Origin: Escherichia coli
Lineage (GTDB): Bacteria; Pseudomonadota; Gammaproteobacteria; Enterobacterales; Enterobacteriaceae
Assembly: GCF_003334355.1 (NCBI RefSeq)
Contig: NZ_QOWP01000023.1
Reading direction: 5' to 3' (one strand)
DNA length: 64,000 bases
Below the pieces are notes generated by a model, which was not told where the DNA came from, did no database searches, and saw only the letters and a list, made by a program, of their open reading frames with translations. Shown piece after piece: positions 35,611 to 64,000 of this stretch. Numbering within the stretch: position 1 is the first letter of the stretch; each line of letters begins with the position of its first letter. The position numbers and the translations under genes were made by a program.

Positions 35611-36445
35611 GATTATCCCCTTCTCCTGCGTTGACGGGCCAGGCAGTCGTCTGGCTCTGTTTTTGCAGGGCTGCAATCTGCGCTGCAAAAACTGTCACAA
35701 TCCGTGGACGATGGGGCGCTGTAATCATTGCGGAGAGTGCGTGCCACAGTGTCCGCATCAGGCGTTGCAGATTGTTGACGGCAAAGTGGTGTGGAACGCT
35801 GCGGTCTGCGAGCAGTGTGATACCTGCCTGAAGAGGTGTCCGCAACATGCCACGCCGATGGCGCAATCCATGAGCGTGGACGAAGTGCTTAGCCATGTCC
35901 GCAAAGCGGTGCTGTTTATTGAAGGGATAACGGTAAGCGGCGGCGAAGCCACGACCCAACTGCCGTTTGTAGTGGCGCTGTTTACTGCTATCAAAAACGA
36001 TCCGCAACTGCGCCATCTCACCTGTCTGGTGGACAGTAACGGCATGTTGAGCGAAACCGGCTGGGAAAAATTACTCCCGGTGTGTGACGGCGCAATGCTC
36101 GATCTCAAAGCATGGGGTAGCGAATGTCATCAACAATTAACCGGACGCGATAATCAGCAGATTAAGCGCAGCATCTGTTTGCTGGCAGAGCGCGGCAAGC
36201 TGGCGGAACTGCGTTTGCTGGTAATCCCTGGCCAGGTGGATTATTTGCAACACATCGAAGAACTGGCGGCGTTTATCAAGGGACTTGGCGATGTTCCGGT
36301 ACGCCTGAACGCGTTTCATGCCCACGGCGTGTATGGCGAGGCGCAAAGCTGGGCGAGCGCCACGCCGGAAGACGTTGAGCCGTTGGCTGATGCATTAAAG
36401 GTGCGCGGGGGGGGCCGGTTGATATTTCCGGCGCTGTATTTGTGA
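35582..36445 (+). CDS. yjjW: Glycyl-radical enzyme activating protein (radical SAM) YjjW
   Basis: 287 aa; Cys clusters ([12 protein letters not shown]; [13 protein letters not shown]...[12 protein letters not shown]); overlaps yjjI 3' end. Confidence 0.88.
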
Positions 36446-36447
36446 CA

Positions 36448-36950
<503 letters not shown>

Positions 36951-36961
36951 CGAAGGGTAAA

Positions 36962-37744
36962 CTACCCACTAACGCTAAACAACGCATACGTATTATTAAG
37001 CAACACTTCGGCAATCTCATCTTCTGGTTCCGGGCGCAACTCGCAAAGCACGTCAAACACCCGCACAGCCTGTTCCGGTCGGTTAGGCTGCCCCTGAAAG
37101 CCGTTGAGCGGCATATCCGGCGCGTCGGTTTCCAGCAACAACGATGCCAGCGGTAATTTTGCGATGACATCGCGGGTTTTACTGGCGCGTGGATAGGTGA
37201 TAGTACCGCCTACGCCGATTTTGTAGCCCAGCTGTACAAACCGCTCGGCCTGTTGCAGGCTGCCGGAAAAACCGTGAACCACGCCAGTGCACGGTAAATC
37301 GTGACGTTTAAGATGCATCGCCAGTTTGTCGTGTGTACGCCGGGAATGAAGGATCACCGGCAGATCGTAGCGTTTCGCCAGTTTCAGCTGTTCGTCGAGT
37401 AACCACTGCTGCCTCTCAAATTGCGGATCGTCGCCGAAGAGATCCAGACCGATCTCCCCCACCGCCACCACCTTCGCCGGACGCCTTTCCAGCGCCTGCT
37501 GTAGCTGATCAAGAGACACATCGCTATGTTTTTCCAACATCCCCGGATGCAACCCCAATGCGGCATACAGCGGTTGATATTTTTCCGCTAACGCCTGCAC
37601 GCGGGCAAAATTTTCCGCCTCTGTCGCCGGAACAATGATCTTGCCTACGCCCGCTTGTGCCGCGCGTTGCAGGCTGGCCTCTTCATCGCCACTAAACGGC
37701 GGGAAATCAAAATGGCAGTGGGTATCGATAAAACGGCAAATCAA
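36962..37744 (-). CDS. yjjV: TatD-family metal-dependent hydrolase YjjV
   Basis: 260 aa, MICRFIDTHCHFDFPPF... (TatD HxH motif). Confidence 0.88.
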   Translation of the reverse strand: MICRFIDTHCHFDFPPFSGDEEASLQRAAQAGVGKIIVPATEAENFARVQALAEKYQPLYAALGLHPGMLEKHSDVSLDQLQQALERRPAKVVAVGEIGLDLFGDDPQFERQQWLLDEQLKLAKRYDLPVILHSRRTHDKLAMHLKRHDLPCTGVVHGFSGSLQQAERFVQLGYKIGVGGTITYPRASKTRDVIAKLPLASLLLETDAPDMPLNGFQGQPNRPEQAVRVFDVLCELRPEPEDEIAEVLLNNTYALFSVSG

Positions 37745-44864: not shown

Positions 44865-44951
44865 GCGAAGGTGGCGGAATTGGTAGACGCGCTAGCTTCA
44901 GGTGTTAGTGTCCTTACGGACGTGGGGGTTCAAGTCCCCCCCCTCGCACCA
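44865..44951 (+). tRNA. leuV: tRNA-Leu (anticodon CAG), single copy
   Basis: 87-nt sequence gcgaaggtggcggaattggtagacgcgctagcttcaggtgttagtgtccttacggacgtgggggttcaagtcccccccctcgcacca with long variable arm and encoded CCA. Confidence 0.93.
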
Positions 44952-44989: not shown

Positions 44990-45226
44990 TCATCCCTGAT
45001 TCAAATTCATTATCATCAGCATGATGGCAGCAATAAGCGCCAGGCACGATGGTAGCAAAACGTAATGCCGTAACTGTTTGTGATACAGCATCACCGGCGT
45101 CAATACTAATCCCATCAGAATGACAATCCGCCACTGATCCGGCGATAAATCCGCATACATCAGCCCTGCAATCAGCAATCCCGGCAGCAACACTCCCCAG
45201 CCACTGCCCAGCGTACGTTGCAACAT
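44990..45226 (-). CDS. yjjZ: Small membrane protein YjjZ
   Basis: Listed ORF contains MLQRTLGSGWGVLLPGLLIAGLMYADLSPDQWRIVILMGLVLTPVMLYHKQLRHYVLLPSCLALIAAIMLMIMNLNQG; start trimmed to the 78-aa form. Confidence 0.8.
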   Translation of the reverse strand: MLQRTLGSGWGVLLPGLLIAGLMYADLSPDQWRIVILMGLVLTPVMLYHKQLRHYVLLPSCLALIAAIMLMIMNLNQG

Positions 45227-45242
45227 GGTTTCATCTCTTTCA

Positions 45243-45352
45243 TTGATAATGATAACCAATATCATATGATAATTTTTATCATTTGCAAGCCAGAGAAATC
45301 CCTTGCTATCGGGTAAACCTATCGCTAGGATTAGCAATCATTATCATTTAGA
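45243..45352. promoter_or_regulatory. fhuF promoter region with Fur boxes
   Basis: gataatgataaccaatatcatatgataatttttatc and caatcattatcattta resemble the Fur consensus gataatgataatcattatc. Confidence 0.7.
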
Positions 45353-45366
45353 TTACTATCCCGATT

Positions 45367-46155
45367 ATGGCCTATCGTTCCGCACCGCTCTATGAAGATA
45401 TCATCTGGCGAACGCATCTCCAGCCGCAGGATGCTGGGCTTGCACAAGCCGTACGTGCGACGATCGCCAAACATCGTGAACATTTGCTCGAGTTTATCCG
45501 CCTGGATGAACCCGCTCCGCTTAACGCCATGACGCTGGCGCAATGGTCATCACCGAATGCGCTAAGTTCTCTACTCGCGGTCTATTCCGATCATATCTAT
45601 CGCAACCAACCAACGATGATCCGCGAGAACAAACCGCTGATCTCACTATGGGCACAATGGTATATCGGCCTGATGGTGCCACCATTAATGCTGGCGCTAC
45701 TGACGCAGGAAAAGGCATTAGATGTGTCGCCGGAACATTTCCATGCTGAGTTTCACGAAACCGGACGCGTCGCCTGTTTCTGGGTCGATGTGTGTGAAGA
45801 TAAAAACGCAACACCACATTCGCCGCAGCAGCGAATGGAAACGTTAATCAGCCAGGCGCTGGTTCCGGTTGTGCAGGCACTAGAAGCGACCGGAGAGATC
45901 AACGGCAAACTTATCTGGAGTAATACCGGTTATTTGATCAACTGGTATCTCACTGAGATGAAGCAGCTGCTCGGCGAGGCGACGGTTGAATCGCTGCGCC
46001 ATGCCCTCTTTTTTGAGAAAACGCTCACGAACGGTGAAGATAATCCACTCTGGCGTACCGTGGTACTGCGCGATGGCCTGCTGGTGCGCCGCACTTGCTG
46101 CCAGCGTTATCGCTTACCGGATGTGCAGCAATGTGGCGATTGTACGCTGAAATGA
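45367..46155 (+). CDS. fhuF: Ferric-siderophore reductase FhuF (2Fe-2S)
   Basis: 262 aa; C-terminal Cys cluster CCQRYRLPDVQQCGDCTLK. Confidence 0.92.
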   Translation: MAYRSAPLYEDIIWRTHLQPQDAGLAQAVRATIAKHREHLLEFIRLDEPAPLNAMTLAQWSSPNALSSLLAVYSDHIYRNQPTMIRENKPLISLWAQWYIGLMVPPLMLALLTQEKALDVSPEHFHAEFHETGRVACFWVDVCEDKNATPHSPQQRMETLISQALVPVVQALEATGEINGKLIWSNTGYLINWYLTEMKQLLGEATVESLRHALFFEKTLTNGEDNPLWRTVVLRDGLLVRRTCCQRYRLPDVQQCGDCTLK

Positions 46156-46192
46156 AAGCACTGCCGGGGAAGTAAACCCGGCATCATGCGGA

Positions 46193-46870
46193 TTAATAGG
46201 GATGCAACACATTACTTGCTTCGCAATGCCGCATACATAACAGAATATCTGCGGCCTCCAACAACCCTGCATCAGAACTGACGCCCAGTTTCGACATCAC
46301 ATTAAATTTATGTGCACGGATCGTTTTGATATTGCGTTTAAGCTGCTCGGCAATTTGTGTCATTGAGTAGCCACGCGACATAAAGCGCAATATTTCTCTC
46401 TCCGTGGGGCTTAGCGTCCGGCTTTGGTTAATGTACCACTGATTGTTCAGTCGGTCGGTCGCCTGACGTACACCATTTAATGACAAAAAGAGTTCCTGAT
46501 GAAAAATCTCCAGCGTTGACGCTTTACTTAATACACCGTCCAGCGGTGATGGCGACAATGAACCAATCAGCCGAGCTTCAATATCATCATCCGCAATAAC
46601 TAAACGCCGGGTACGCGGAAACTTAATCGCCAGTTCAGTCAGGCAAGATAATCCCTCTCTGCGCTCACTTCTCATGGCAGAAAAAGAAAAAATGACCGCC
46701 GCAAACGAGATCCGCGACATGGCATCCTGAAATGACTCCTGACTGGTATAGGTATGGAGCTTATAAGGGTTACCCGCAAACTTTCTGAATAAACTCTCAA
46801 TACCGATACTACTCATGACGCATTTTTCTATGAGTGCGACATTTCTCTTCTTAATTCGGCTGTGTTCCAT
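46193..46870 (-). CDS. bglJ: LuxR-family transcriptional regulator BglJ
   Basis: 225 aa; C-terminal LuxR HTH ([44 protein letters not shown]). Confidence 0.9.
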
Positions 46871-47553
46871 TCTGCGGCATCTCCATAAACAGAAGGCAAG
46901 TTAAGTTCTCTTGCACCCTGCGCGCTATTTATCCATGCATACATTTCAGCGTTGCTGTGAATTGCCAGTCGACGCATCGCACTGTTTTTTTGGGCGCTGA
47001 TAGTTTTATTACTTTTCTTAAGCAACGAAGCTATCTGGTTGATGCCCCATCCTTTACCTAATAGCCGCAGTACCTTGCGCTCTGAAAGAGTGAGAATGAC
47101 GGAGCGATAGCTAAAATCATGAGTTTCAGTCATTGCCGGAGAGGTCAGCATGGCGCTGATACGCTCTGCGTGCGTATTGCCGGAACGTACGGTCTTGACC
47201 AGATTCTCAATGGGTTCAACATCAGACAATAACGTCGCCGTAGGGCACATGAGCAATTCTACTGCCTGGGAATACCAGGAGCGTGACACCATGAAAACCC
47301 AGTGAATTTCCCGATATTGTGAGATTAAAGAATAATAATGTTCACAAACAGAACGTGGATCTTCACTTTCACCGGCTAAATCAGCAATGACTAATCCGGA
47401 ACGACGTAATTGTAATAAGGTAAGGTCCTCCGCAGAGGCGCTGGATATTATTTCATATTCAGGGAAGTGAGTCCTCATGACCTCTTTTAACCCTGCTTGC
47501 ATAACAGGTATTTTACTGATAACAATTCCATTTTTGCAGCATCCTGGCAACAT
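46828..47553 (-). CDS. yjjQ: LuxR-family transcriptional regulator YjjQ
   Basis: 241 aa; C-terminal LuxR HTH ([41 protein letters not shown]); overlaps bglJ start. Confidence 0.9.
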
Positions 47554-48171
47554 ATTTCCTCCACATCCACTGTCTAAAAATCATGATGGTTTATTCAGGA
47601 TATTCATTCCTTAAATGTTTCCAGCAAATTAATAGATTAAGCGAATAAATTATCCTTAGCATTCACTTTCATATCAGCATACTCCTGCTGCACAACAACT
47701 CCACTGCATGTGTCAGAAGGTTAGCATCAAATGATAACCTGGTGAAATAGCCTGGAGACATTTAAAATATCTACATTAAGTTGTTAGAAATACTTAATGA
47801 AAAACAGAAATATCATTCATTTAATTTATAATTCAATGATACCTCTTCCCGCAAAATGCAAAATCACACAACCAATATTTATTCAATAAAATCTGATTGT
47901 TTTAACTTGTTGGCATTAAAAAACGCGCCCAGTTATCTATTATCCTGATTCGTAAAGGCCAAACAATAAATTCATTATGGTGATAATATTCATGTGATAA
48001 TTTGTTTGCGGCGAGAGATAATTCGCTTTTTATCACCGAGCTTCTCCCGATAACCAGGATTAATCAGCGCAATTTTGATCTTAACCTACCGCAAAACAAC
48101 CGTGCTTCATGATACAAATGAATTCTCATTATCTGAACAATACGCAGCACGTCTATGACAAAGGGCGAGTT

Positions 48172-48942
48172 ATGCAAACTGAGCAACAGCGAGCCGTAAC
48201 ACGGCTTTGTATCCAGTGTGGATTATTTCTTTTGCAACATGGTGCGGAAAGCGCGTTGGTTGATGAGCTTTCCTCACGACTGGGTCGGGCGCTGGGAATG
48301 GACAGCGTCGAAAGTTCTATCTCTTCGAACGCCATAGTGCTGACAACCATTAAAGATGGGCAATGCCTGACATCGACACGTAAAAATCACGATCGCGGCA
48401 TTAATATGCATGTGGTGACTGAAGTCCAGCACATTGTGATTCTGGCGGAGCACCATCTGCTGGATTACAAAGGCGTAGAGAAACGATTTAGCCAAATTCA
48501 GCCATTACGTTACCCAAGATGGCTGGTAGCCTTAATGGTTGGCCTTTCTTGCGCCTGTTTCTGTAAACTCAATAACGGTGGCTGGGATGGTGCCGTCATC
48601 ACCTTCTTTGCCAGTACGGCCGCGATGTATATCCGCCAGCTACTGGCACAACGTCATCTTCATCCACAGATCAACTTTTGCCTCACCGCTTTCGCCGCCA
48701 CCACTATTTCCGGTTTGCTTTTGCAACTTCCCACCTTCAGCAATACACCCACCATTGCAATGGCCGCCAGCGTTCTGCTGCTGGTGCCGGGCTTTCCGTT
48801 GATTAATGCCGTCGCCGATATGTTTAAAGGCCACATCAATACCGGACTGGCACGCTGGGCGATCGCCAGTCTGCTGACACTGGCTACCTGCGTCGGCGTG
48901 GTGATGGCACTGACGATTTGGGGGCTACGCGGATGGGTGTGA
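48172..48942 (+). CDS. yjjP: ThrE-family inner membrane protein YjjP (succinate exporter subunit)
   Basis: Listed ORF contains [30 protein letters not shown]...; start trimmed to 256-aa form. Confidence 0.85.
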
Positions 48943-49406
48943 TCGAGTTTCTGTTTGCATTGGCGCAGGATATGATCCTCGCCGCCATTCCAGCGGTCGG
49001 CTTTGCGATGGTGTTCAACGTTCCCGTTCGGGCATTACGCTGGTGTGCGCTGCTTGGCGCGATTGGTCATGGTTCCCGAATGATCTTAATGACCAGCGGG
49101 CTGAATATTGAGTGGTCAACCTTTATGGCTTCTATGCTGGTCGGCACCATTGGTATTCAATGGTCGCGCTGGTATCTGGCGCATCCGAAAGTGTTTACCG
49201 TGGCGGCTGTTATCCCTATGTTTCCTGGCATATCAGCTTATACTGCAATGATTTCGGCGGTAAAAATCAGTCAGCTAGGCTACAGCGAACCGTTGATGAT
49301 TACCCTGTTAACCAACTTTCTTACAGCTTCATCAATTGTTGGTGCGTTATCCATCGGTCTTTCCATTCCTGGATTATGGTTGTACCGCAAGCGCCCTCGC
49401 GTATAA
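48933..49406 (+). CDS. yjjB: Inner membrane protein YjjB (partner of YjjP)
   Basis: Listed ORF contains [30 protein letters not shown]...; overlaps yjjP stop. Confidence 0.85.
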
Positions 49407-49513
49407 AATTGCCTCACTTAAAGCACGCGGATGAGAGACAGCCTCCTCTCCTCCGTGTGTTACTATAAAAGTTATCTCCCTTCTCGTTCATCGTTCCATA
49501 TTTGAGAAACAGT

Positions 49514-50053
49514 ATGTCTTCCAGAGTTTTGACCCCGGACGTCGTTGGTATTGACGCCCTGGTACAGGATCACCAAACCGTTCTGGCAAAAGCTGAAGGC
49601 GGTGTGGTTGCCGTATTTGCTAACAATGCCCCGGCGTTTTATGCCGTCACGCCTGCACGCCTGGCTGAACTGCTGGCGCTGGAAGAAAAGCTGGCGCGTC
49701 CGGGAAGCGATGTCGCTCTGGACGATCAACTCTATCAGGAACCGCAAGCCGCTCCCGTTGCTGTACCCATGGGGAAATTCGCCATGTATCCGGACTGGCA
49801 ACCCGATGCCGACTTTATCCGCCTGGCGGCGCTATGGGGCGTGGCGCTAAGAGAGCCGGTGACCACCGAAGAACTGGCCTCATTCATTGCCTACTGGCAG
49901 GCGGAAGGTAAAGTCTTTCACCATGTGCAGTGGCAACAAAAACTGGCGCGCAGCCTGCAAATCGGTCGTGCCAGCAACGGCGGACTGCCGAAACGAGATG
50001 TGAATACGGTCAGCGAACCTGACAGCCAAATTCCACCAGGATTCAGAGGGTAA
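49514..50053 (+). CDS. dnaT: Primosomal protein DnaT
   Basis: Listed ORF contains [30 protein letters not shown]...; start trimmed to 179-aa form. Confidence 0.92.
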
Positions 50054-54020: not shown

Positions 54021-55043
54021 TCAGAAAGTAATTACACCCTTAATCAACTCACGATTGTTAATCACATCGCGCTCGTAGGTTTCTGCCAGCGTGGCGAACG
54101 GATAGCGATGGGTTAACATCATGTCGGCAGTGATTTTTCCTTCCGCCATCAGTCGACCGACTTTAGCAAAATCTTCCGGCGTGGCGTTGCGGCTGCCCAT
54201 CATCGTCGTTTCTTTTTTATGGAATTCCGGATCGGAGAACTGCAACTCACCTTTAAACAGGCCGACAAATACCACCGTGCCGCCGTGACGAATCAAATTC
54301 ACGGTGTTATTCATCGCATGTTGATTACCTGTCGCGTCGATCACTTTCTGCGCCAGCGAACCACCAAACTGCGCCCGTAGCTGCGCGTCAAAATCTTCGG
54401 CTGACGGGTCCAGTAAAGGTAATTCCAGACGCGTTGCCACATGTTCACGGCGCGCCGGACTGGTATCCGCCACCACCACCTGTGCGCCATCGGCTTTAGC
54501 GATTGCCGCCGCGCCCAGACCGATTGGCCCCGCCCCGACCACCAGCACCTGCTCGCCGGGAGCAATGGCTGCGCGACGCACCGCATGAGCGCTAATAGCG
54601 AAAGGTTCAATCAATGCTGCCGCCTGCGGGTCAATACCGTCTGCGGGCAAAATGTTCGCCACCGGCACGCTCAAATACTCACTAAAACCGCCATCCTGAT
54701 GCACGCCAATGACTGAAATTTTTTCACAGCAATTGGTACGCCCGCTTTTACACGCCGGGCATTGCTGACAGGCAACATAAGGGATCACAGCAACTTGCTG
54801 ACCATTTTTAAGATCAGCAATATTTTTACCCAGCCCAACAATCTCCCCACATATTTCATGGCCTAAAACACGTGGATAACTAAAAAATGGTTGATTTCCA
54901 CCCCAGGCATGAATATCGGTACCACAAATCCCGACAGACTTAATTTTTATTAATGCTTCATTGTCACCCGGAATAGGTATCTCGCGTTGTTTCCAGACTA
55001 ATTCTTTCGGCTGCTGGCAAATTAAAACATTCATCGTAGACAT
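54021..55043 (-). CDS. lgoD: L-galactonate 5-dehydrogenase LgoD (YjjN), Zn-dependent MDR family
   Basis: Listed ORF contains MSTMNVLICQQPKELVWKQREIPIPGDNEALIKIKSVGICGTDIHAWGGNQPF...; start trimmed to 340-aa form. Confidence 0.9.
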   Translation of the reverse strand: MSTMNVLICQQPKELVWKQREIPIPGDNEALIKIKSVGICGTDIHAWGGNQPFFSYPRVLGHEICGEIVGLGKNIADLKNGQQVAVIPYVACQQCPACKSGRTNCCEKISVIGVHQDGGFSEYLSVPVANILPADGIDPQAAALIEPFAISAHAVRRAAIAPGEQVLVVGAGPIGLGAAAIAKADGAQVVVADTSPARREHVATRLELPLLDPSAEDFDAQLRAQFGGSLAQKVIDATGNQHAMNNTVNLIRHGGTVVFVGLFKGELQFSDPEFHKKETTMMGSRNATPEDFAKVGRLMAEGKITADMMLTHRYPFATLAETYERDVINNRELIKGVITF

Positions 55044-55181
55044 GATTCGGCTCTCCATTTTTTGTTGCCTTAGATATCAATAAAAATGAAAAATGGCAGC
55101 GGAACGGAAAATCTGTTTTGTGAAAACACACGCATAAAAATGTTTTAAATCGGGTTTTAATGGACTCACAAGGAGGAAAAT

Positions 55182-56096
55182 ATGAGTCGTTCACAAAATT
55201 TACGCCACAATGTGATTAACCAGGTCATTGATGATATGGTGCGGGGTCATATCCCTTCCCCACTTCCATCGCAAAGTGCGCTGGCGGAAATGTACAACAT
55301 CAGCCGCACTACAGTGCGTCATATTCTCAGCCACTTACGCGAATGCGGCGTCTTAACGCAGGTTGGAAACGACTATGTGATTGCGCGTAAACCTGACCAT
55401 GATGACGGTTTCGCCTGTACTACCGCTTCAATGAGTGAACAAAACAAAGTGTTTGAGCAGGCTTTTTTCACGATGATAAACCAGCGCCAGTTACGCCCTG
55501 GGGAAACTTTTTCTGAACTGCAACTGGCTCGGGCCGCGGGTGTCAGCCCGGTTGTAGTAAGAGAATATCTTTTAAAATTCGGCCGTTATAATCTTATTCA
55601 AAGCGAAAAGCGCGGCCAGTGGAGCATGAAGCAATTCGATCAATCCTACGCCGAGCAGCTGTTTGAACTACGCGAAATGCTCGAAACACATTCACTTCAG
55701 CACTTTCTCAACCTGCCTGATCATGATCCCCGCTGGCTGCAGGCGAAAACCATGCTCGAACGTCATCGGCTACTGCGTGACAACATCGGCAATAGCTTTC
55801 GCATGTTCTCGCAACTTGACAGAGATTTTCACTCCTTACTGCTTTCAGCTGCCGACAATATCTTTTTTGATCAATCTCTTGAGATCATCTCAGTCATCTT
55901 TCATTTTCACTATCAATGGGACGAAAGCGATCTTAAACAGCGCAATATCATTGCCGTCGATGAGCATATGACCATTCTCAGCGCTCTGATTTGCCGCAGT
56001 GACCTTGATGCCACCCTTGCGCTCCGTAACCATTTGAATTCAGCTAAACAATCAATGATTCGATCCATTAATGAGAACACGCGTTATGCTCATTAA
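55182..56096 (+). CDS. lgoR: GntR-family regulator LgoR (YjjM)
   Basis: 304 aa; N-terminal GntR-like HTH. Confidence 0.88.
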   Translation: MSRSQNLRHNVINQVIDDMVRGHIPSPLPSQSALAEMYNISRTTVRHILSHLRECGVLTQVGNDYVIARKPDHDDGFACTTASMSEQNKVFEQAFFTMINQRQLRPGETFSELQLARAAGVSPVVVREYLLKFGRYNLIQSEKRGQWSMKQFDQSYAEQLFELREMLETHSLQHFLNLPDHDPRWLQAKTMLERHRLLRDNIGNSFRMFSQLDRDFHSLLLSAADNIFFDQSLEIISVIFHFHYQWDESDLKQRNIIAVDEHMTILSALICRSDLDATLALRNHLNSAKQSMIRSINENTRYAH

Positions 56097-56309
56097 GTAC
56101 GGATTAAAAACAGCAAACTATTAGCGGTGCACGGTTTTATCAAAAGATAAATACCGGGAAATTCCCGCTTACCTATGCTCACAATCAGTCGACTAAAAAT
56201 GTTTTTGTGAGCGGTAGTAAAGTCCTAAAACTTTAACCTGCCGTTAATGTCAACCTTGCGTAATGCACAATTACGTAAACAATTAAAATTATAAATACAG
56301 GAGTCCGGC

Positions 56310-57671
56310 GTGGAAAAAGAAAATATCACCCTCGATCCGCGTTCTTCATTTACTCCATCTTCGTCGGCAGATATTCCCGTGCCACCAGATGGATTAGTTC
56401 AACGCAGTACCCGAATTAAACGCATTCAAACCACCGCCATGTTGTTATTATTTTTTGCGGCGGTAATCAATTATCTCGACCGCAGTTCGCTGTCGGTAGC
56501 AAATTTAACGATTCGTGAAGAATTGGGATTAAGTGCCACCGAAATCGGCGCTTTGCTCTCCGTGTTTTCACTCGCTTACGGGATTGCGCAACTTCCTTGC
56601 GGCCCACTATTGGATCGTAAAGGCCCACGCCTGATGCTGGGACTGGGGATGTTCTTCTGGTCACTGTTCCAGGCCATGTCTGGCATGGTGCACAGCTTTA
56701 CGCAGTTCGTGTTGGTGCGTATCGGTATGGGGATTGGTGAAGCGCCGATGAACCCATGTGGCGTAAAAGTCATTAACGACTGGTTCAACATCAAAGAGCG
56801 CGGACGCCCGATGGGCTTCTTCAACGCAGCTTCTACCATTGGCGTTGCCGTAAGCCCACCGATTCTGGCGGCGATGATGCTGGTGATGGGCTGGCGTGGG
56901 ATGTTTATTACCATTGGTGTGCTGGGGATTTTTCTCGCCATTGGCTGGTATATGCTCTATCGCAACCGCGAGCACGTAGAACTGACTGCCGTTGAACAAG
57001 CTTATCTCAATGCAGGTAGCGTCAATGCCCGCCGAGATCCGCTCAGTTTTGCCGAATGGCGCAGCCTGTTCCGTAACCGCACAATGTGGGGAATGATGCT
57101 CGGATTCAGTGGCATCAACTACACTGCGTGGCTGTATCTGGCCTGGCTTCCTGGTTACCTGCAAACAGCCTATAACCTGGATTTAAAAAGCACAGGGTTG
57201 ATGGCGGCTATCCCTTTCCTGTTTGGGGCTGCCGGGATGCTGGTCAACGGTTACGTTACTGACTGGCTGGTCAAAGGGGGAATGGCTCCGATTAAAAGCC
57301 GTAAGATCTGCATTATTGCCGGGATGTTCTGTTCTGCCGCCTTTACGCTGGTCGTACCGCAAGCGACAACATCCATGACGGCGGTTCTGCTGATTGGCAT
57401 GGCACTGTTCTGTATTCACTTTGCCGGAACATCCTGCTGGGGCTTGATCCACGTCGCAGTTGCTTCTCGCATGACGGCGTCGGTGGGCAGTATCCAGAAC
57501 TTTGCCAGCTTCATCTGCGCCTCTTTTGCGCCGATCATTACTGGTTTTATTGTTGATACCACCCACTCATTCCGTCTGGCACTAATCATCTGCGGTTGCG
57601 TCACCGCAGCGGGAGCACTGGCGTACATCTTCCTGGTTCGTCAGCCGATCAACGACCCGCGTAAAGATTAA
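56310..57671 (+). CDS. lgoT: L-galactonate:H+ symporter LgoT (YjjL), MFS
   Basis: 453 aa MFS transporter. Confidence 0.9.
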   Translation: MEKENITLDPRSSFTPSSSADIPVPPDGLVQRSTRIKRIQTTAMLLLFFAAVINYLDRSSLSVANLTIREELGLSATEIGALLSVFSLAYGIAQLPCGPLLDRKGPRLMLGLGMFFWSLFQAMSGMVHSFTQFVLVRIGMGIGEAPMNPCGVKVINDWFNIKERGRPMGFFNAASTIGVAVSPPILAAMMLVMGWRGMFITIGVLGIFLAIGWYMLYRNREHVELTAVEQAYLNAGSVNARRDPLSFAEWRSLFRNRTMWGMMLGFSGINYTAWLYLAWLPGYLQTAYNLDLKSTGLMAAIPFLFGAAGMLVNGYVTDWLVKGGMAPIKSRKICIIAGMFCSAAFTLVVPQATTSMTAVLLIGMALFCIHFAGTSCWGLIHVAVASRMTASVGSIQNFASFICASFAPIITGFIVDTTHSFRLALIICGCVTAAGALAYIFLVRQPINDPRKD

Positions 57672-57678
57672 ACTCCCT

Positions 57679-57713
57679 ATGCCCGATAACATTTTGCTTA
57701 TCGGGCATTTTTA
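57679..57713. terminator. Bidirectional terminator between convergent lgoT and tsr
   Basis: Hairpin atgcccgataa-N9-ttatcgggcat followed by T-run. Confidence 0.7.
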
Positions 57714-57719
57714 TGGCGA

Positions 57720-59384
57720 TTAAAACGTTTCCCAGTTCTCCCCGCTATCTGCCACTGCCATTTTACGCGGCGTAGCTGGCGTCACGTTTTTTACCACAGC
57801 CGATGTTTCACGCTGCTGTTGCTGCTGTTGCTGAATCCGGAACACTGCCACAGCTTCGGTCAGGCGACTGGCCTGCTCTTCCAGCGCGGCGGCGGCAGCG
57901 GCAGATTCTTCCACCAGCGCAGCGTTCTGTTGAGTTACCCGGTCCATCTCAGCAACCGCTAAGCCAACCTGATCGATACCACGGCTCTGCTCATCAGAAG
58001 CAGAAGCAATTTCGCCCATAATGTCCGTCACGCGGGTCACGGCACTGACAATCTCCGCCATTGTTTCCCCTGCGCTTTCGACCAGCGTAGAGCCAACATC
58101 TACTTTCCCCACCGAGTCTTCAATCAGGCTTTTAATTTCACGAGCCGCCTGAGCGCTGCGCTGGGCCAGATTACGCACTTCACCCGCGACCACCGCAAAA
58201 CCGCGCCCTTGCTCACCCGCGCGCGCTGCTTCAACCGCCGCGTTCAAAGCCAGAATATTGGTCTGGAAGGCAATGCCGTCAATTACGCTGATAATATCGG
58301 CGATTTTCTGCGAACTGGTGGAGATATCGCGCATAGTCTGCACCACGTTATCTACCACTTTGCCGCCGCGTTGCGCCGTTTCAGAAGCACTTAACGCCAG
58401 GTGGCTGGCCTGGCGCGCATTTTCGGCGTTCTGTTTCACCGTTGCGGTCAGTTGCTCCATGCTGGCTGCCGTCTCTTCCAGCGAAGCGGCCTGTTGCTCG
58501 GTGCGCGAAGAGAGATCGTTATTGCCGGTAGCGATTTCGCTGGCACCGCTATAGATGGCATTGGCCCCGTTGCGCACATCACCGACGGTACGCATCAGCT
58601 CTCCCTGCATATAGCGCAAACTCTCTGCCAGTTGCCCCATCTCATTAGAGCCATCCACCTCAATCGGTTTCACCAGATCGCCGCCTGCAATATGACGAAT
58701 GCTGTCAATCAGGCGATTCATTGGCGCTACCAACGAGGCTTTAATACCGAACCAGACGGCGAAGATGACTGCCAGTACGACGATCATCACGCCCACCAGA
58801 ATCCACATCGCCTGGCTGTAGGAGGCATTATTATCGCTGACGGCGATATCATAGAGCCGATCGTTTTGCTCCATGTAAGCCACATACTGCTTCTCGAAAC
58901 CGTCCTGATATCCCTGGGTCGGCTGATCAAAGAACTCGTTGATTTTGCCTGCACCTAACAGTTGGATCAGCTCCGCCAGCGCATTGTGATAAATATCGTA
59001 ATTACGTTTGATCTCTGCCGCTGCGGCGGTGCTCTGACGCGGGTCACGCGGCAACGCTTCGTAATCCGCCCAGTTTTTTTCCGCCTGTTTCAGCGAAATA
59101 CTGGCACTCTCCATCAGCTCAGCAACGGTTGAACCGCTACCAATATTATTCTGATCCATCATGTAGCGGATACCCGCGCGGTTGAGGGTGTTACGCGTCT
59201 GCAACAACGCGACCCAGCTGCCATTCAGCGTGGATTGCTGCTGGCGAATAGTTTGTAAAACAGTGAAATTTTCTTTGTCATTCTTTAAGGCATTAAAGAA
59301 CAGACCGCCTGATGTCAGTTGTAAAAGGCCAAAAACGGCCAAAACCAGCAGTAAGCTGGTCACAATTTTGATACGTTTTAACAT
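57720..59384 (-). CDS. tsr: Methyl-accepting chemotaxis protein I (serine chemoreceptor) Tsr
   Basis: 554 aa, [40 protein letters not shown]...; C-terminal NWETF pentapeptide. Confidence 0.95.
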
Positions 59385-59532
59385 GGTTTCTCTTTCCTGT
59401 GGACCGATGCAAGATTTTCGGCCAGGAAAGGAAAAACTTTATGAATATCCCGCGGAGATTACGCCGAGTAATTTTATTCACACTCTGAATTTAAAAAGCC
59501 ATTATTTACATAAATTACTCACAATATAAATA

Positions 59533-59548
59533 TGTGATATGAATCACA
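59533..59548. promoter_or_regulatory. CRP-like binding site in the tsr-btsT intergenic region
   Basis: tgtgatatgaatcaca matches the CRP consensus TGTGA-N6-TCACA. Confidence 0.5.
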
Positions 59549-59760
59549 TATTTATCGTCACTTAAACGACGCCTTTGCCGCTCAACCGCAAAGCTGACCG
59601 CTTACATCCCTAAAATAACCACTCAGTTATTTACCTTACTTTACGCGCGCGTAACTCTGGCAACATCACTACAGGATAGCGGTCAATTTACCTCCTCAAA
59701 CGCAACGCAAACCTAGAACGGCTTCGGCCAACTATTAATCAATACATGCCAGGTTTTACT

Positions 59761-61911
59761 ATGGATACTAAAAAGATATTCAAGCACATACCCTGGGTGA
59801 TTCTCGGAATCATCGGTGCATTCTGCCTCGCGGTAGTTGCATTACGTCGGGGGGAGCACGTCAGCGCCCTGTGGATCGTGGTCGCCTCTGTGTCGGTGTA
59901 TCTGGTGGCGTATCGCTACTACAGTCTGTACATCGCCCAGAAGGTGATGAAACTCGACCCCACGCGCGCGACGCCTGCGGTTATTAACAACGACGGTCTG
60001 AACTACGTTCCGACCAACCGTTACGTGTTGTTTGGTCACCACTTCGCCGCTATCGCCGGTGCTGGTCCGCTGGTGGGTCCGGTTCTCGCCGCGCAGATGG
60101 GCTACCTGCCTGGCACGCTGTGGCTGCTGGCGGGGGTCGTGCTGGCCGGTGCGGTTCAGGACTTTATGGTGCTGTTTATCTCCTCTCGCCGTAATGGCGC
60201 ATCTCTTGGTGAGATGATCAAAGAAGAGATGGGACCAGTACCGGGGACTATCGCGCTGTTTGGCTGTTTCTTAATCATGATCATCATCCTCGCCGTCCTG
60301 GCGCTGATTGTGGTTAAAGCCCTGGCCGAAAGTCCGTGGGGTGTCTTCACCGTTTGCTCAACCGTACCGATTGCGCTGTTTATGGGTATCTACATGCGCT
60401 TTATCCGTCCGGGGCGTGTGGGTGAAGTCTCTGTCATTGGTATCGTGCTGCTGGTTGCCTCTATCTACTTCGGTGGCGTGATTGCTCACGATCCGTACTG
60501 GGGTCCGGCACTGACCTTTAAAGACACCACCATTACCTTCGCGCTGATTGGCTATGCGTTTGTTTCCGCACTGCTGCCGGTGTGGCTGATCCTCGCACCG
60601 CGCGACTATCTGGCAACCTTCCTGAAAATCGGCGTTATCGTCGGCCTGGCGCTGGGTATCGTGGTGCTGAACCCGGAACTGAAAATGCCTGCGATGACCC
60701 AGTACATTGACGGTACTGGCCCGCTGTGGAAAGGCGCTCTGTTCCCGTTCCTGTTCATCACCATCGCCTGTGGTGCGGTATCTGGCTTCCACGCGCTGAT
60801 CTCTTCCGGTACGACGCCGAAACTGCTGGCTAACGAAACCGACGCGCGTTTCATTGGCTACGGCGCAATGCTGATGGAGTCCTTCGTGGCGATTATGGCG
60901 CTGGTTGCTGCGTCCATCATCGAACCGGGTCTTTACTTCGCGATGAATACCCCGCCTGCGGGCCTTGGCATCACCATGCCTAACCTGCATGAAATGGGTG
61001 GCGAGAACGCGCCGATCATCATGGCGCAGCTGAAAGACGTTACCGCACACGCGGCGGCGACCGTCAGCTCCTGGGGCTTCGTGATTTCGCCAGAGCAGAT
61101 CCTGCAAACCGCGAAAGACATTGGTGAGCCTTCTGTCCTGAACCGTGCAGGTGGTGCGCCGACGCTGGCGGTAGGTATCGCTCATGTGTTCCACAAAGTG
61201 CTGCCGATGGCTGACATGGGCTTCTGGTATCACTTCGGTATTCTGTTCGAAGCCCTGTTCATCCTGACCGCGCTGGATGCGGGTACCCGTTCTGGCCGCT
61301 TTATGCTGCAAGACCTGCTGGGTAACTTCATCCCGTTCCTGAAAAAAACCGACTCTCTGGTTGCCGGTATCATCGGTACTGCGGGCTGTGTGGGTCTGTG
61401 GGGCTACCTGCTGTATCAGGGCGTGGTCGATCCGCTGGGCGGCGTTAAGAGCCTGTGGCCGCTGTTCGGTATCTCCAACCAGATGCTGGCAGCCGTAGCG
61501 CTGGTACTGGGCACCGTTGTGCTGATTAAGATGAAGCGCACCCAATACATCTGGGTAACTGTTGTTCCGGCTGTATGGCTGCTTATCTGCACCACCTGGG
61601 CGCTGGGTCTGAAACTGTTCAGCACCAACCCGCAGATGGAAGGCTTCTTCTACATGGCAAGCCAGTACAAAGAGAAGATTGCTAACGGTACTGACCTGAC
61701 GGCGCAGCAGATTGCCAACATGAACCACATCGTTGTGAACAACTACACCAACGCGGGCCTGAGTATTCTGTTCCTGATTGTGGTGTACAGCATCATCTTC
61801 TACGGTTTCAAAACCTGGCTTGCGGTGCGTAACAGCGACAAACGTACTGACAAAGAAACACCGTACGTTCCAATCCCGGAAGGCGGCGTGAAGATCTCTT
61901 CGCACCACTAA
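59761..61911 (+). CDS. btsT: CstA-family pyruvate/H+ symporter BtsT (YjiY)
   Basis: Listed ORF contains MDTKKIFKHIPWVILGIIGAFCLAVVALRRGEH...; start trimmed to 716-aa form. Confidence 0.92.
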   Translation: MDTKKIFKHIPWVILGIIGAFCLAVVALRRGEHVSALWIVVASVSVYLVAYRYYSLYIAQKVMKLDPTRATPAVINNDGLNYVPTNRYVLFGHHFAAIAGAGPLVGPVLAAQMGYLPGTLWLLAGVVLAGAVQDFMVLFISSRRNGASLGEMIKEEMGPVPGTIALFGCFLIMIIILAVLALIVVKALAESPWGVFTVCSTVPIALFMGIYMRFIRPGRVGEVSVIGIVLLVASIYFGGVIAHDPYWGPALTFKDTTITFALIGYAFVSALLPVWLILAPRDYLATFLKIGVIVGLALGIVVLNPELKMPAMTQYIDGTGPLWKGALFPFLFITIACGAVSGFHALISSGTTPKLLANETDARFIGYGAMLMESFVAIMALVAASIIEPGLYFAMNTPPAGLGITMPNLHEMGGENAPIIMAQLKDVTAHAAATVSSWGFVISPEQILQTAKDIGEPSVLNRAGGAPTLAVGIAHVFHKVLPMADMGFWYHFGILFEALFILTALDAGTRSGRFMLQDLLGNFIPFLKKTDSLVAGIIGTAGCVGLWGYLLYQGVVDPLGGVKSLWPLFGISNQMLAAVALVLGTVVLIKMKRTQYIWVTVVPAVWLLICTTWALGLKLFSTNPQMEGFFYMASQYKEKIANGTDLTAQQIANMNHIVVNNYTNAGLSILFLIVVYSIIFYGFKTWLAVRNSDKRTDKETPYVPIPEGGVKISSHH

Positions 61912-61918
61912 CCGTGTT

Positions 61919-61947
61919 TAGCCCCGCTTCGGCGGGGCTTTGTTCTT
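61919..61947 (+). terminator. Rho-independent terminator downstream of btsT
   Basis: Hairpin agccccgc-ttcg-gcggggct followed by a T-rich tract. Confidence 0.65.
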
Positions 61948-61960
61948 ATCAGAGTGAACT

Positions 61961-62164
61961 ATGTTTGGTAACTTAGGACAGGCAAAAAAATATCTCGGCC
62001 AGGCGGCAAAGATGTTGATTGGCATTCCAGACTACGACAACTACGTCGAGCATATGAAGACCAACCATCCCGACAAGCCGTACATGAGCTATGAAGAATT
62101 CTTCCGCGAACGCCAGAACGCGCGCTACGGCGGCGATGGTAAAGGCGGTATGCGCTGTTGTTAA
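61961..62164 (+). CDS. yjiX: Small protein YjiX (DUF466), CstA-associated
   Basis: 67 aa, [58 protein letters not shown]... Confidence 0.88.
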
Positions 62165-62174
62165 TGGAGAGAGC

Positions 62175-63131
62175 ATGAACCCGATTGCAGTTACCCTACT
62201 CACCGGTTTTTTAGGCGCGGGAAAAACCACCCTGCTGCGCCATATTCTTAACGAACAACACGGCTACAAGATTGCCGTGATTGAAAACGAATTCGGCGAA
62301 GTCTCCGTTGATGATCAACTAATTGGCGACCGCGCCACGCAGATCAAAACGCTGACCAACGGCTGCATCTGCTGTTCGCGCTCCAACGAGCTGGAAGACG
62401 CACTACTCGACCTGCTGGATAATCTCGACAAGGGCAATATTCAGTTTGACCGTCTGGTCATTGAATGCACCGGCATGGCCGATCCCGGCCCGATTATTCA
62501 GACCTTTTTCTCCCATGAGATTTTATGCCAGCGTTACCTGCTGGACGGTGTGATTGCGCTGGTGGATGCGGTACATGCCGACGAGCAGATGAACCAGTTC
62601 ACCATCGCCCAGTCCCAGGTTGGCTACGCCGACCGTATTCTGCTGACCAAAACCGACGTCGCAGGCGAAGCAGAAAAACTGCGTGAACGCCTGGCGCGCA
62701 TCAACGCCCGTGCACCGGTCTACACCGTCACCCACGGCGACATCGACCTGGGCCTGCTGTTCAACACCAACGGTTTTATGCTGGAAGAGAACGTCGTCAG
62801 CACCAAACCGCGTTTCCACTTTATCGCGGATAAACAAAACGATATTTCGTCGATTGTGGTGGAACTGGATTACCCGGTAGATATCAGCGAAGTTTCCCGG
62901 GTGATGGAAAACCTGCTTCTGGAATCGGCAGATAAACTGCTGCGTTACAAAGGGATGCTGTGGATTGACGGCGAACCTAACCGCCTGCTGTTCCAGGGCG
63001 TCCAGCGCCTCTACAGCGCCGACTGGGACCGCCCGTGGGGCGATGAAAAACCGCATAGCACAATGGTGTTTATCGGGATTCAGTTGCCGGAGGAAGAGAT
63101 TCGGGCAGCGTTTGCGGGGTTGAGGAAGTAA
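62175..63131 (+). CDS. yjiA: COG0523-family GTPase / metal chaperone YjiA
   Basis: Listed ORF contains MNPIAVTLLTGFLGAGKTTLLRHILNEQHGYKIAVIENEFGEVSVDDQL...; CxCC motif GCICCS; start trimmed to 318-aa form. Confidence 0.92.
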   Translation: MNPIAVTLLTGFLGAGKTTLLRHILNEQHGYKIAVIENEFGEVSVDDQLIGDRATQIKTLTNGCICCSRSNELEDALLDLLDNLDKGNIQFDRLVIECTGMADPGPIIQTFFSHEILCQRYLLDGVIALVDAVHADEQMNQFTIAQSQVGYADRILLTKTDVAGEAEKLRERLARINARAPVYTVTHGDIDLGLLFNTNGFMLEENVVSTKPRFHFIADKQNDISSIVVELDYPVDISEVSRVMENLLLESADKLLRYKGMLWIDGEPNRLLFQGVQRLYSADWDRPWGDEKPHSTMVFIGIQLPEEEIRAAFAGLRK

Positions 63132-63164
63132 TTTTGGATGATGGCCGCCATGTGGCGGCCTGAA

Positions 63165-63467
63165 TTATTTTTTGTTCTGATCGCGCAGCATCGCTTCACG
63201 TAAAATTGCGTTCAGGCGAGTTTGATAGCCTTTACCTGGTCGCTTCAACCATTCCATCACATCAGCATCAATACGCACCGAAGCCTGAGTTTTCAATGGC
63301 CGATAAAACTTACCGCGTTCGGCGTTAGACCATTGCTCATCGCTGGAAGGTGGGATATCACTGTAATCAATATCTTCGTCGGATTTATTCGTCAGCGCCT
63401 TCAGTTCGGCCTCATGCTGCACATCGAGTGTAGAGGAGGTCCCTCGTTTATGTTTAACCATGCTCAT
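63165..63467 (-). CDS. BrnA-like antitoxin (COG3514/DUF4415-type)
   Basis: C-terminal signature VRIDADVMEWLKRPGKGYQTRLNAILREAM; start chosen at the Met preceded by SD-like gaggaa, overlapping the upstream toxin stop (100 aa). Confidence 0.75.
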   Translation of the reverse strand: MSMVKHKRGTSSTLDVQHEAELKALTNKSDEDIDYSDIPPSSDEQWSNAERGKFYRPLKTQASVRIDADVMEWLKRPGKGYQTRLNAILREAMLRDQNKK

Positions 63468-63741
63468 AGCGATTCCTCTCTTTACGATCTGCTTTTCGTG
63501 CACTGATGATTCGAATAATTTCATTTCCGCTTTCGAAACGGATGGTATGCGCAACCAGAATAACCACGATGCCGTAAACCAGGCCGATTGTCTGCCAGCG
63601 ATACTCACCGTTTTCTATGCGTTCTTGCTGTGACAAATGTTGTGGATCATCAAACAATAACACCGCATCTTCAAAGCGGATGCCATGTTTCACCCGATTA
63701 CTTTTGGCCTTGTTTTCATCCCATTCAAACTCCATTGGCAT
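63454..63741 (-). CDS. BrnT-like toxin (DUF497 ribonuclease-type)
   Basis: MPMEFEWDENKAKSNRVKHGIRFEDAVLLFDDP...IRIISARKADRKERNRYE matches the BrnT/DUF497 pattern; start at the ATG with SD-like aggga 8 nt upstream (listed ORF begins at an upstream TTG). Confidence 0.75.
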   Translation of the reverse strand: MPMEFEWDENKAKSNRVKHGIRFEDAVLLFDDPQHLSQQERIENGEYRWQTIGLVYGIVVILVAHTIRFESGNEIIRIISARKADRKERNRYEHG

Positions 63742-63924
63742 AATTGCCATCCCTAATTGTATATACAAAAATGTATCTACAATTATTCTGCAATTATAGC
63801 GTTGATGTTGGAAATAGCATCACGTTTCGAATAATCAACCATGAAATTGACAATGAGTAAGTTGGACTTGATTCATCCAATAGAATTTCTCGCCTGACAT
63901 GGCACACTAAACACCTCGCTGTCG

Positions 63925-64000
63925 GGTAATGACTCCAACTTACTGATAGTGTTTTATGTTCAGATAATGCCCGATGACCTTGTCATGCAGCTCCACCGAT
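63925..64000 (-). mobile_element. IS1 insertion sequence, terminal 76 bp (truncated by window end)
   Basis: ggtaatgactccaacttactgatagtgttttatgttcagataatgcccgatgaccttgtcatgcagctccaccgat matches the remembered IS1 inverted repeat and adjacent insB-distal sequence. Confidence 0.85.

What the first reader, a model, noticed from the sequence alone, without database searches (positions are those of the whole stretch)
63132..64000. Window ends at the edge of the immigration-control-region hotspot: TA pair and IS1 replace K-12 mrr after yjiA
Synteny with K-12 holds through yjiA and then breaks. Where K-12 has mrr-hsdRMS-symE-mcrBC, this sequence has a brnTA-like pair and the end of an IS1 running off the window. 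This yjiA-flanked locus is a known hypervariable site for restriction and other defence genes, so any strain-specific system most likely sits just beyond position 64000. Nothing inside the window shows what it is.
Basis: partly seen in the sequence, partly recalled or inferred. Interest (0 to 1): 0.6.

Follow-up and report, generated by a model that had tools for sequence, protein, structure and literature searches.

The report
IS1 scar of deleted restriction island
The window ends at a common, already annotated E. coli arrangement in which an old IS1 copy next to a BrnT/BrnA toxin-antitoxin pair marks where the restriction-gene island was deleted, so no hidden defence system is expected beyond the window.

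Summary
K-12 synteny stops at the yjiA stop codon (63131). A BrnA/BrnT pair follows on the minus strand (63165-63741). The last 76 bases (63925-64000) are the end of an IS1.

The inference that a strain-specific defence system lies just beyond 64000 is not supported. The same brnT-IS1 junction occurs in 1113 of 5426 complete E. coli genomes. In at least 1010 of them one 767-768 bp IS1F-type element runs straight into mdtM-yjiN. Relatives without the IS1 carry brnT, an Mrr-like nuclease, hsdM, hsdS, hsdR, symE, yjiS, yjiR and rpnD before mdtM. The IS1 replaces exactly that 11.3 kb and has no target-site duplication. One left junction is paired with several right junctions, which fits IS1-mediated adjacent deletion and rearrangement.

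The window matches 100% a draft contig (GCA_002190165.1) that ends 28 bases past the window, inside the IS1. Its own continuation therefore cannot be read. Its haplotype is the one that joins mdtM 259 bp after the IS1.

The immigration control region, brnAT as one of its toxin-antitoxin pairs, and IS1 deletions are all established. This is ordinary and of low interest.

The parts
62175..63131 (+). yjiA (GTPase), the last gene syntenic with K-12 and the left anchor of the immigration control region
   Evidence: The alignment to K-12 ends at 63131. Annotated as yjiA in identical relatives.
63143..63160 (+). GC-rich hairpin followed by a T-rich tail, between the convergent genes yjiA and brnA. 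It looks like a terminator and belongs to the non-K-12 segment.
   Evidence: Consensus scan only. Function is inferred.
63165..63467 (-). brnA, antitoxin of a type II BrnT/BrnA pair (100 aa)
   Evidence: Pfam PF14384, E 3.1e-17, full model. RefSeq WP_000063160.1 'BrnA antitoxin family protein' in M217, which is identical here.
63454..63741 (-). brnT, ribonuclease-type toxin (95 aa). It lies upstream of brnA and overlaps it by 14 nt.
   Evidence: Pfam PF04365, E 4.7e-24. PDB 7vd7 'toxin' E 4e-52 and 3u97 Brucella BrnT E 1.6e-4. The exact protein is very widespread.
63754..63785 (.). Imperfect palindrome TAATTGTATATACA / TGTATCTACAATTA, 13 nt upstream of the brnT start. A candidate operator for autoregulation.
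   Evidence: Inverted repeat of 14 nt, 93% complementary. The operator role is inferred and untested.
63742..63924 (-). The retained 183 bp of the brnT upstream intergenic region. The left deletion breakpoint lies between 63924 and 63925.
   Evidence: Homology to genomes with an intact island (L003, L004) ends at 63924, which is 13 bp before the start codon of their Mrr-like nuclease gene.
63925..64000 (-). First 76 nt (insB-distal inverted repeat end) of an IS1F-type IS1. It runs off the window.
   Evidence: 76/76 identical to the complete element in M217. That element is 99% identical to K-12 IS1F and has an internal stop in insB.

Best explanation
The window ends on the scar of a deleted immigration control region.

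The ancestral arrangement is still present in many E. coli: yjiA, brnA-brnT, an Mrr-like type IV nuclease, a type I system (hsdM, hsdS, hsdR), symE, yjiS, yjiR, rpnD, then mdtM. An IS1F-type IS1 sits 183 bp upstream of brnT. Everything from 13 bp before the Mrr-like gene to about 260 bp before mdtM (11.3 kb) is gone. What remains is yjiA-brnAT-IS1-mdtM.

The most likely mechanism is IS1-mediated adjacent deletion by intramolecular transposition from the IS1 end that faces away from brnT. Recombination between two IS1 copies is a lesser alternative.

The BrnTA pair is a surviving edge gene pair of the lost cassette. By family knowledge, BrnT is a RelE-fold ribonuclease neutralised by BrnA, and the pair probably represses itself through the palindrome upstream. 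It is not a sign of a further system.

In the window's own genome the next gene after the IS1 is most probably mdtM. That step is inferred from relatives. What is shown directly: the gene identities, the junction, the missing target duplication in relatives, and the population counts.
For: - **Junction frequency.** yjiA plus brnAT occurs in 1781 of 5426 complete E. coli genomes. The brnT-IS1 junction occurs in 1113. yjiA-brnAT-IS1-mdtM lies in one place in at least 1010.
- **Right junctions.** 450 genomes have the M217 type and 664 the AVS0973 type, 1114 in total.
- **Annotation.** brnT, one IS1 pseudogene, then mdtM-yjiN-yjiM-yjiL.
- **Intact relatives.** L003 and L004 carry the nuclease, hsdMSR, symE, yjiS, yjiR and rpnD between the same flanks. 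The breakpoints map to L003 20926 and 32196, an 11,269-bp loss.
- **No target duplication.** The left flank is TCGCTGTCG and the right flank is AAATTTTAA.
- **One left junction, at least five right junctions.** These are the M type, the A type, L019, L020 (reaching iraD) and L022 (dcm-vsr).
- **A related rearrangement.** Strain 720632 has the IS1 duplicated in inverted orientation, with mdtM-yjiK inverted between the copies. This is the classic product of intramolecular replicative transposition.
- **Window haplotype.** There are 6 mismatches in the last 11 kb against M217. The genomes that are 100% identical to 63100-64000 are the same ones that carry the M-type right junction.
- **Literature.** IS1-promoted adjacent deletions are established knowledge. 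brnAT is listed among the ICR toxin-antitoxin systems (PMC12707154).
Against: - The window's own continuation is unreadable. The 100%-identical contig LYBG01000752.1 stops inside the IS1.
- No complete genome is more than 99.2% identical over 39-64 kb, so the lineage is rare and mosaic.
- Other right-hand contexts exist. L019 is as close to the window as M217 in the last 10 kb, yet continues into amino-acid permease and decarboxylase genes.
- The IS1's insB has an internal stop, and M217 adds a frameshift. The element may not have been able to act alone. Timing, or transposase supplied in trans, has to be assumed.
- No intermediate with the IS1 inserted and the island intact was found, so the order of events is inferred.
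- The A-type flank contains 273 nt of yghX-yghW DNA, which a single simple adjacent deletion does not explain.
Confidence: 0.85

Rival explanations
1. One reading: the IS1 sits at the edge of an occupied island, and a strain-specific restriction or other defence system lies within 20-40 kb beyond position 64000.
For: The ICR is a true defence hotspot (PMC12707154). 668 genomes carry brnAT followed by an Mrr-like nuclease and a type I system (1781 minus 1113). The source contig ends in the IS1, so this cannot be excluded directly.
Against: No inspected genome with this exact brnT-IS1 junction has defence genes after the IS1. A search for an IS1-nuclease-gene junction found none. The only hit, Ec-91, is an independent IS1 insertion inside brnT. 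The right-junction counts (1114) match the left-junction count (1113).
Confidence: 0.04
2. In the source genome this IS1 has taken part in a further IS1-mediated inversion, larger deletion or translocation. Unrelated chromosomal DNA, not mdtM and not a defence island, would then follow.
For: Such cases exist: 720632 (inversion of mdtM-yjiK), L020 (deletion reaching iraD), L022 (joined to dcm-vsr) and L019 (joined to permease and decarboxylase genes). The source assembly is highly fragmented, since the contig number is at least 752. That may reflect many IS copies.
Against: These cases are a small minority. At least 91% of complete genomes with the junction are contiguous with mdtM.
Confidence: 0.1
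3. The deletion arose by homologous recombination between two directly repeated IS1F-type copies, one upstream of brnT and one upstream of mdtM, rather than by transposase-driven adjacent deletion.
For: The element's insB carries an internal stop. A second identical IS1F-type copy occurs nearby in some genomes (L020). Missing target duplications are expected under this model as well.
Against: No genome with two flanking copies around an intact island was found. Several different right junctions share one left junction. The duplicative inversion in 720632 points to transposition from one resident copy.
Confidence: 0.15

Closest known systems
E. coli K-12 immigration control region (mrr-hsdRMS-symE-mcrBC-yjiV/T/S/R-rpnD)
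   Same: The chromosomal site and the left anchor are the same. Homology runs through tsr, btsT, yjiX and yjiA up to the yjiA stop codon. In relatives, the mdtM upstream region on the far side is also shared.
   Different: About 19.1 kb of K-12 DNA between yjiA and the mdtM upstream region is replaced by 793 bp (brnAT and its flanks) plus one IS1. No restriction genes remain.
brnAT-linked ICR cassette (for example strains Ecol_AZ153 and Z1323HEC0462)
   Same: yjiA-brnA-brnT with the same intergenic sequence up to window position 63924, at 96-97% identity.
   Different: Those genomes keep the Mrr-like nuclease, hsdM, hsdS, hsdR, symE, yjiS, yjiR and rpnD. In the window's haplotype the IS1 replaces all of them.
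E. coli C 'empty site' ICR (Sibley and Raleigh 2004, as cited in PMC12707154)
   Same: It is an ICR without a working type I system at the same locus.
   Different: The structure differs: yjiA, a DUF262 (GmrSD-like) gene, an hsdR remnant, yjiS, yjiR. There is no brnAT and no IS1.
IS1F of E. coli K-12 (next to fecI)
   Same: 99% nucleotide identity over the whole element in relatives, with the same internal stop in insB. The 76 nt in the window are identical to that type.
   Different: The chromosomal position differs. Here there is no target duplication, and the element borders a deletion.
BrnT/BrnA of Brucella abortus (PDB 3u97) and the BrnT-like toxin of PDB 7vd7
   Same: Full-length Pfam BrnT and BrnA matches, toxin-first operon order, and sequence similarity to both solved toxins.
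   Different: Similarity to the Brucella protein is only distant (E 1.6e-4). Activity of the E. coli pair was not tested here. It does not match any PADLOC defence model.

Membership tests
BrnT/BrnA type II toxin-antitoxin | Toxin with the BrnT (PF04365) domain | tested here: met
   E 4.7e-24, model positions 1-77 of 77. PDB 7vd7 E 4e-52 and 3u97 E 1.6e-4.
BrnT/BrnA type II toxin-antitoxin | Antitoxin with the BrnA (PF14384) domain encoded next to the toxin | tested here: met
   E 3.1e-17, model positions 1-68 of 68.
BrnT/BrnA type II toxin-antitoxin | Toxin gene upstream of the antitoxin gene in one operon | tested here: met
   brnT at 63741-63454 precedes brnA at 63467-63165 on the minus strand, with a 14-nt overlap.
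BrnT/BrnA type II toxin-antitoxin | Ribonuclease toxicity that is neutralised by the antitoxin | not testable with these tools
   This needs expression and rescue experiments.
IS1 family insertion sequence | Terminal inverted repeat of IS1 and identity to a complete element of about 768 bp | tested here: met
   76/76 identical to the 767-bp element of M217. Both inverted repeats are present in relatives. The element is 99% identical to K-12 IS1F.
IS1 family insertion sequence | Intact insA and insB reading frames | tested here: not met
   In relatives insB has an internal stop, and M217 adds a frameshift. The element is a defective copy. These genes lie beyond the window.
IS1 family insertion sequence | 8-9 bp target-site duplication, expected for a simple insertion | tested here: not met
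   The flanks are TCGCTGTCG and AAATTTTAA (M type) or CGGATTCCA (A type). This fits deletion or rearrangement, not simple insertion.
Immigration control region / defence hotspot 36 | Located between the anchor genes yjiA and yjiN | tested here: met
   yjiA is in the window. mdtM-yjiN follow the IS1 in relatives. The anchors are as defined in PMC12707154.
Immigration control region / defence hotspot 36 | Occupied by restriction or other defence genes | tested here: not met
   None lie between yjiA and mdtM in relatives with this junction. BrnT and BrnA match no PADLOC model. This could not be read in the source genome itself.

The most novel reading that the evidence does not exclude
The BrnTA pair may act as an addiction 'stopper' that fixes the left boundary of the island. 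The same brnT-IS1 junction is kept while the other IS1 end has produced at least five different deletions or inversions. IS1 events that would remove brnTA may be counter-selected. The resulting lineages without ICR restriction genes include many carbapenem-resistant clinical isolates among the identical hits, and they may take up foreign plasmids more easily. Separately, the window's own rare lineage could still carry something unusual after the IS1.
Probability: 0.12. Interest if true: 0.35.

Novelty: already known. Interest (0 to 1): 0.08.

Why it matters
It matters little beyond bookkeeping. This window should not be followed up as a lead to a new defence system.

The finding does show that about one fifth of complete E. 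coli genomes carry an immigration control region emptied of all restriction genes by an IS1-associated deletion. A toxin-antitoxin pair is the only remnant. This is useful context when interpreting restriction phenotypes, or plasmid uptake, in those lineages.

Tried and rejected
- **NCBIfam and PADLOC** scans of BrnT and BrnA gave no families. One search used a toxin range starting one codon upstream of the annotated start codon. Pfam gave the clear assignment.
- **First exact-protein look-up.** It used a 96-aa translation with one extra N-terminal residue and returned only contigs cut at that point. I repeated it with the correct 95 aa.
- **Finding the source genome among complete genomes.** No complete genome exceeds 99.2% identity over 39-64 kb. 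A look-up of the window's rare Tsr variant found the 100%-identical draft contig, but it ends inside the IS1. The true continuation could not be read.
- **Search for an intermediate** (brnT-IS1-nuclease gene with the island intact). None was found. The single hit, Ec-91, is an independent IS1 insertion within brnT.
- **E. coli C.** I tested whether the published 'empty site' has the same structure. It does not. The original paper (PMC373321) is not held.
- **Hotspot paper PMC10121019.** It holds no text on yjiA or mdtM.
- **Rfam.** The scan of 62900-64000 gave only a sub-threshold chance hit.
- **Promoter scan.** It found no minus-strand sigma-70 match for brnT, so the promoter is not located.
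- **Substitution counts.** Synonymous and nonsynonymous counts for brnT and brnA are too small to infer selection.

Full report
**What is in the sequence.**

The last 6 kb of the window reads tsr (minus strand), btsT, yjiX and yjiA (plus strand). The alignment to K-12 MG1655 runs from 55033 to 63131 and stops at the final base of the yjiA stop codon. In K-12 the next gene is mrr, followed by hsdRMS, symE and mcrBC.

In the window, yjiA is followed by these features:
- A GC-rich hairpin with a T-rich tail at 63143-63160.
- brnA at 63165-63467 on the minus strand.
- brnT at 63454-63741 on the minus strand.
- A 183-bp upstream region that holds a 14-nt imperfect palindrome at 63754-63785.
- From 63925 to the end, 76 nt that are 76/76 identical to the end of a complete IS1.

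Pfam assigns the two proteins over the full models. BrnT matches PF04365 at E 4.7e-24 and BrnA matches PF14384 at E 3.1e-17. BrnT also matches two solved toxins: 7vd7 at E 4e-52 and Brucella BrnT 3u97 at E 1.6e-4.

**What lies beyond the window in relatives.**

Counts among the 5426 complete E. coli genomes:

| Feature | Genomes |
|---|---|
| yjiA end plus brnAT | 1781 |
| brnT-IS1 junction | 1113 |
| yjiA end, brnAT, whole IS1 and mdtM start in one place | at least 1010 |
| Right junction, M217 type (M) | 450 |
| Right junction, AVS0973 type (A) | 664 |

- The figure of 1010 is a lower bound. IS1-rich genomes hit the 40-piece reporting cap. T28R scored only 68%, yet its annotation shows brnT-IS1-mdtM.
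- The two right-junction types sum to 1114, which matches the 1113 left junctions.
- The annotation of M217, AVS0973 and T28R shows the same order: brnA, brnT, one IS1 pseudogene, mdtM, yjiN, yjiM, yjiL.
- No restriction or other defence gene follows the IS1 in any genome I inspected.

**What was there before.**

Genomes that carry brnAT without the IS1 (668 by subtraction) have a longer gene series between the same flanks. Ecol_AZ153 and Z1323HEC0462 carry brnT, a 389-aa 'restriction endonuclease', hsdM, hsdS, hsdR, symE, yjiS, yjiR, rpnD and then mdtM. A related locus shows Mrr_cat in the nuclease.

Mapping the IS1 flanks onto Ecol_AZ153 places the breakpoints at 20926 and 32196. The missing stretch is 11,269 bp. 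It begins 13 bp before the nuclease start codon and ends about 260 bp before mdtM. Measured against K-12, about 19.1 kb is replaced.

**How it probably happened.**

- The IS1 has no target-site duplication. The left flank is TCGCTGTCG. The right flank is AAATTTTAA in the M type and CGGATTCCA in the A type.
- The left junction is identical everywhere, but at least five right junctions exist: M, A, L019, L020 (reaching iraD) and L022 (joined to dcm-vsr).
- In strain 720632 the element is duplicated in inverted orientation inside yjiJ, and mdtM-yjiK is inverted between the copies. This is the expected product of intramolecular replicative transposition.
- Together these results fit the established behaviour of IS1, which promotes adjacent deletions and inversions from one end.
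- One caveat: the element is IS1F-like (99% identical to K-12 IS1F), and its insB has an internal stop. It may have acted before it decayed, or with transposase supplied in trans. IS1-IS1 recombination may also have contributed.
- No intermediate with the IS1 inserted and the island intact was found.

**The window's own genome.**

No complete genome is more than 99.2% identical across 39-64 kb, and the window is a mosaic. Its Tsr variant is rare. A look-up of that variant found contig LYBG01000752.1 of GCA_002190165.1 (69,181 bp). The contig is 100% identical over 16,281 bases and ends 28 bases past the window, inside the IS1. The continuation therefore cannot be read from that record.

The last 11 kb differ from M217 at only 6 positions. 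The genomes that are 100% identical to 63100-64000 are the same ones that carry the M-type right junction. I infer, with about 85% confidence, that mdtM follows 259 bp after the IS1. The main alternative is a further IS1-mediated rearrangement, not a hidden defence island.

**Comparison with what is known.**

The ICR (hotspot 36) is a long-studied defence island anchored by yjiA and yjiN. A recent review lists brnAT among its toxin-antitoxin systems (PMC12707154). Framework genes yjiPRS and yjiAXY are described in PMC4498929. The classical 'empty site' of E. coli C has a different structure: a DUF262 gene plus an hsdR remnant.

BrnT and BrnA match no PADLOC defence model, and no Rfam family is present. 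The arrangement is annotated routinely by RefSeq in more than a thousand genomes.

**Verdict.**

The feature is real, correctly described and ordinary. The inference that made it interesting is not supported.

Noticed in passing
L005 37695-37967 (strain AVS0973; not in the window): In the more common right-junction variant (664 complete genomes), the IS1 is followed by 273 nt copied from the yghX 3' end, the intergenic region and the first codons of yghW. This DNA is fused in frame to mdtM at a short microhomology. As a result mdtM has a foreign promoter region and a different N-terminus (MAGLKATH instead of MPRFFARH).
   Followed up: partly
L036 3775-11548 (strain 720632): The locus IS1 is duplicated in inverted orientation within yjiJ, and the mdtM-yjiK segment is inverted between the two copies. 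This shows that the supposedly defective element has driven a further rearrangement.
   Followed up: partly
L019, L020 and L022 (positions below about 9050 in each): The same brnT-IS1 left junction joins other DNA in a few assemblies. L019 joins amino-acid permease and decarboxylase genes with a group II intron. L020 joins iraD, a larger deletion, and has a second identical IS1 between tsr and lgoD. L022 joins dcm-vsr.
   Followed up: no
window 33000-36999 and 45000-49999: The window is a recombination mosaic. These segments differ by about 2-4% from the closest complete genomes, while 50-64 kb is nearly identical to M217. No complete E. coli genome exceeds 99.2% identity over 39-64 kb.
   Followed up: partly
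window 36457-36944: A tandem array of 4.8 copies of a 101-bp unit containing REP-like palindromes lies in the region that corresponds to the yjjW-yjjV intergenic gap of the relative AVS0973 (L005). The same array is present in that relative.
   Followed up: partly
window 44865-44951: Only one tRNA-Leu(CAG) gene is present. M217 and Ecol_AZ153 each have three tandem tRNA-Leu copies at this site, and AVS0973 also has one.
   Followed up: partly
window 57720-59384: Tsr is 554 aa, against 551 aa in K-12. This exact protein variant is rare (7 contigs on record). The same protein also occurs in a genome only 98.9% identical in DNA that keeps the intact brnAT-linked restriction island (L027).
   Followed up: partly
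window 59385-59745, compared with L004 and L034: Some strains, including E. coli C, carry the 12-kb hpa (4-hydroxyphenylacetate) cluster between tsr and btsT. The window, like K-12, lacks it.
   Followed up: no
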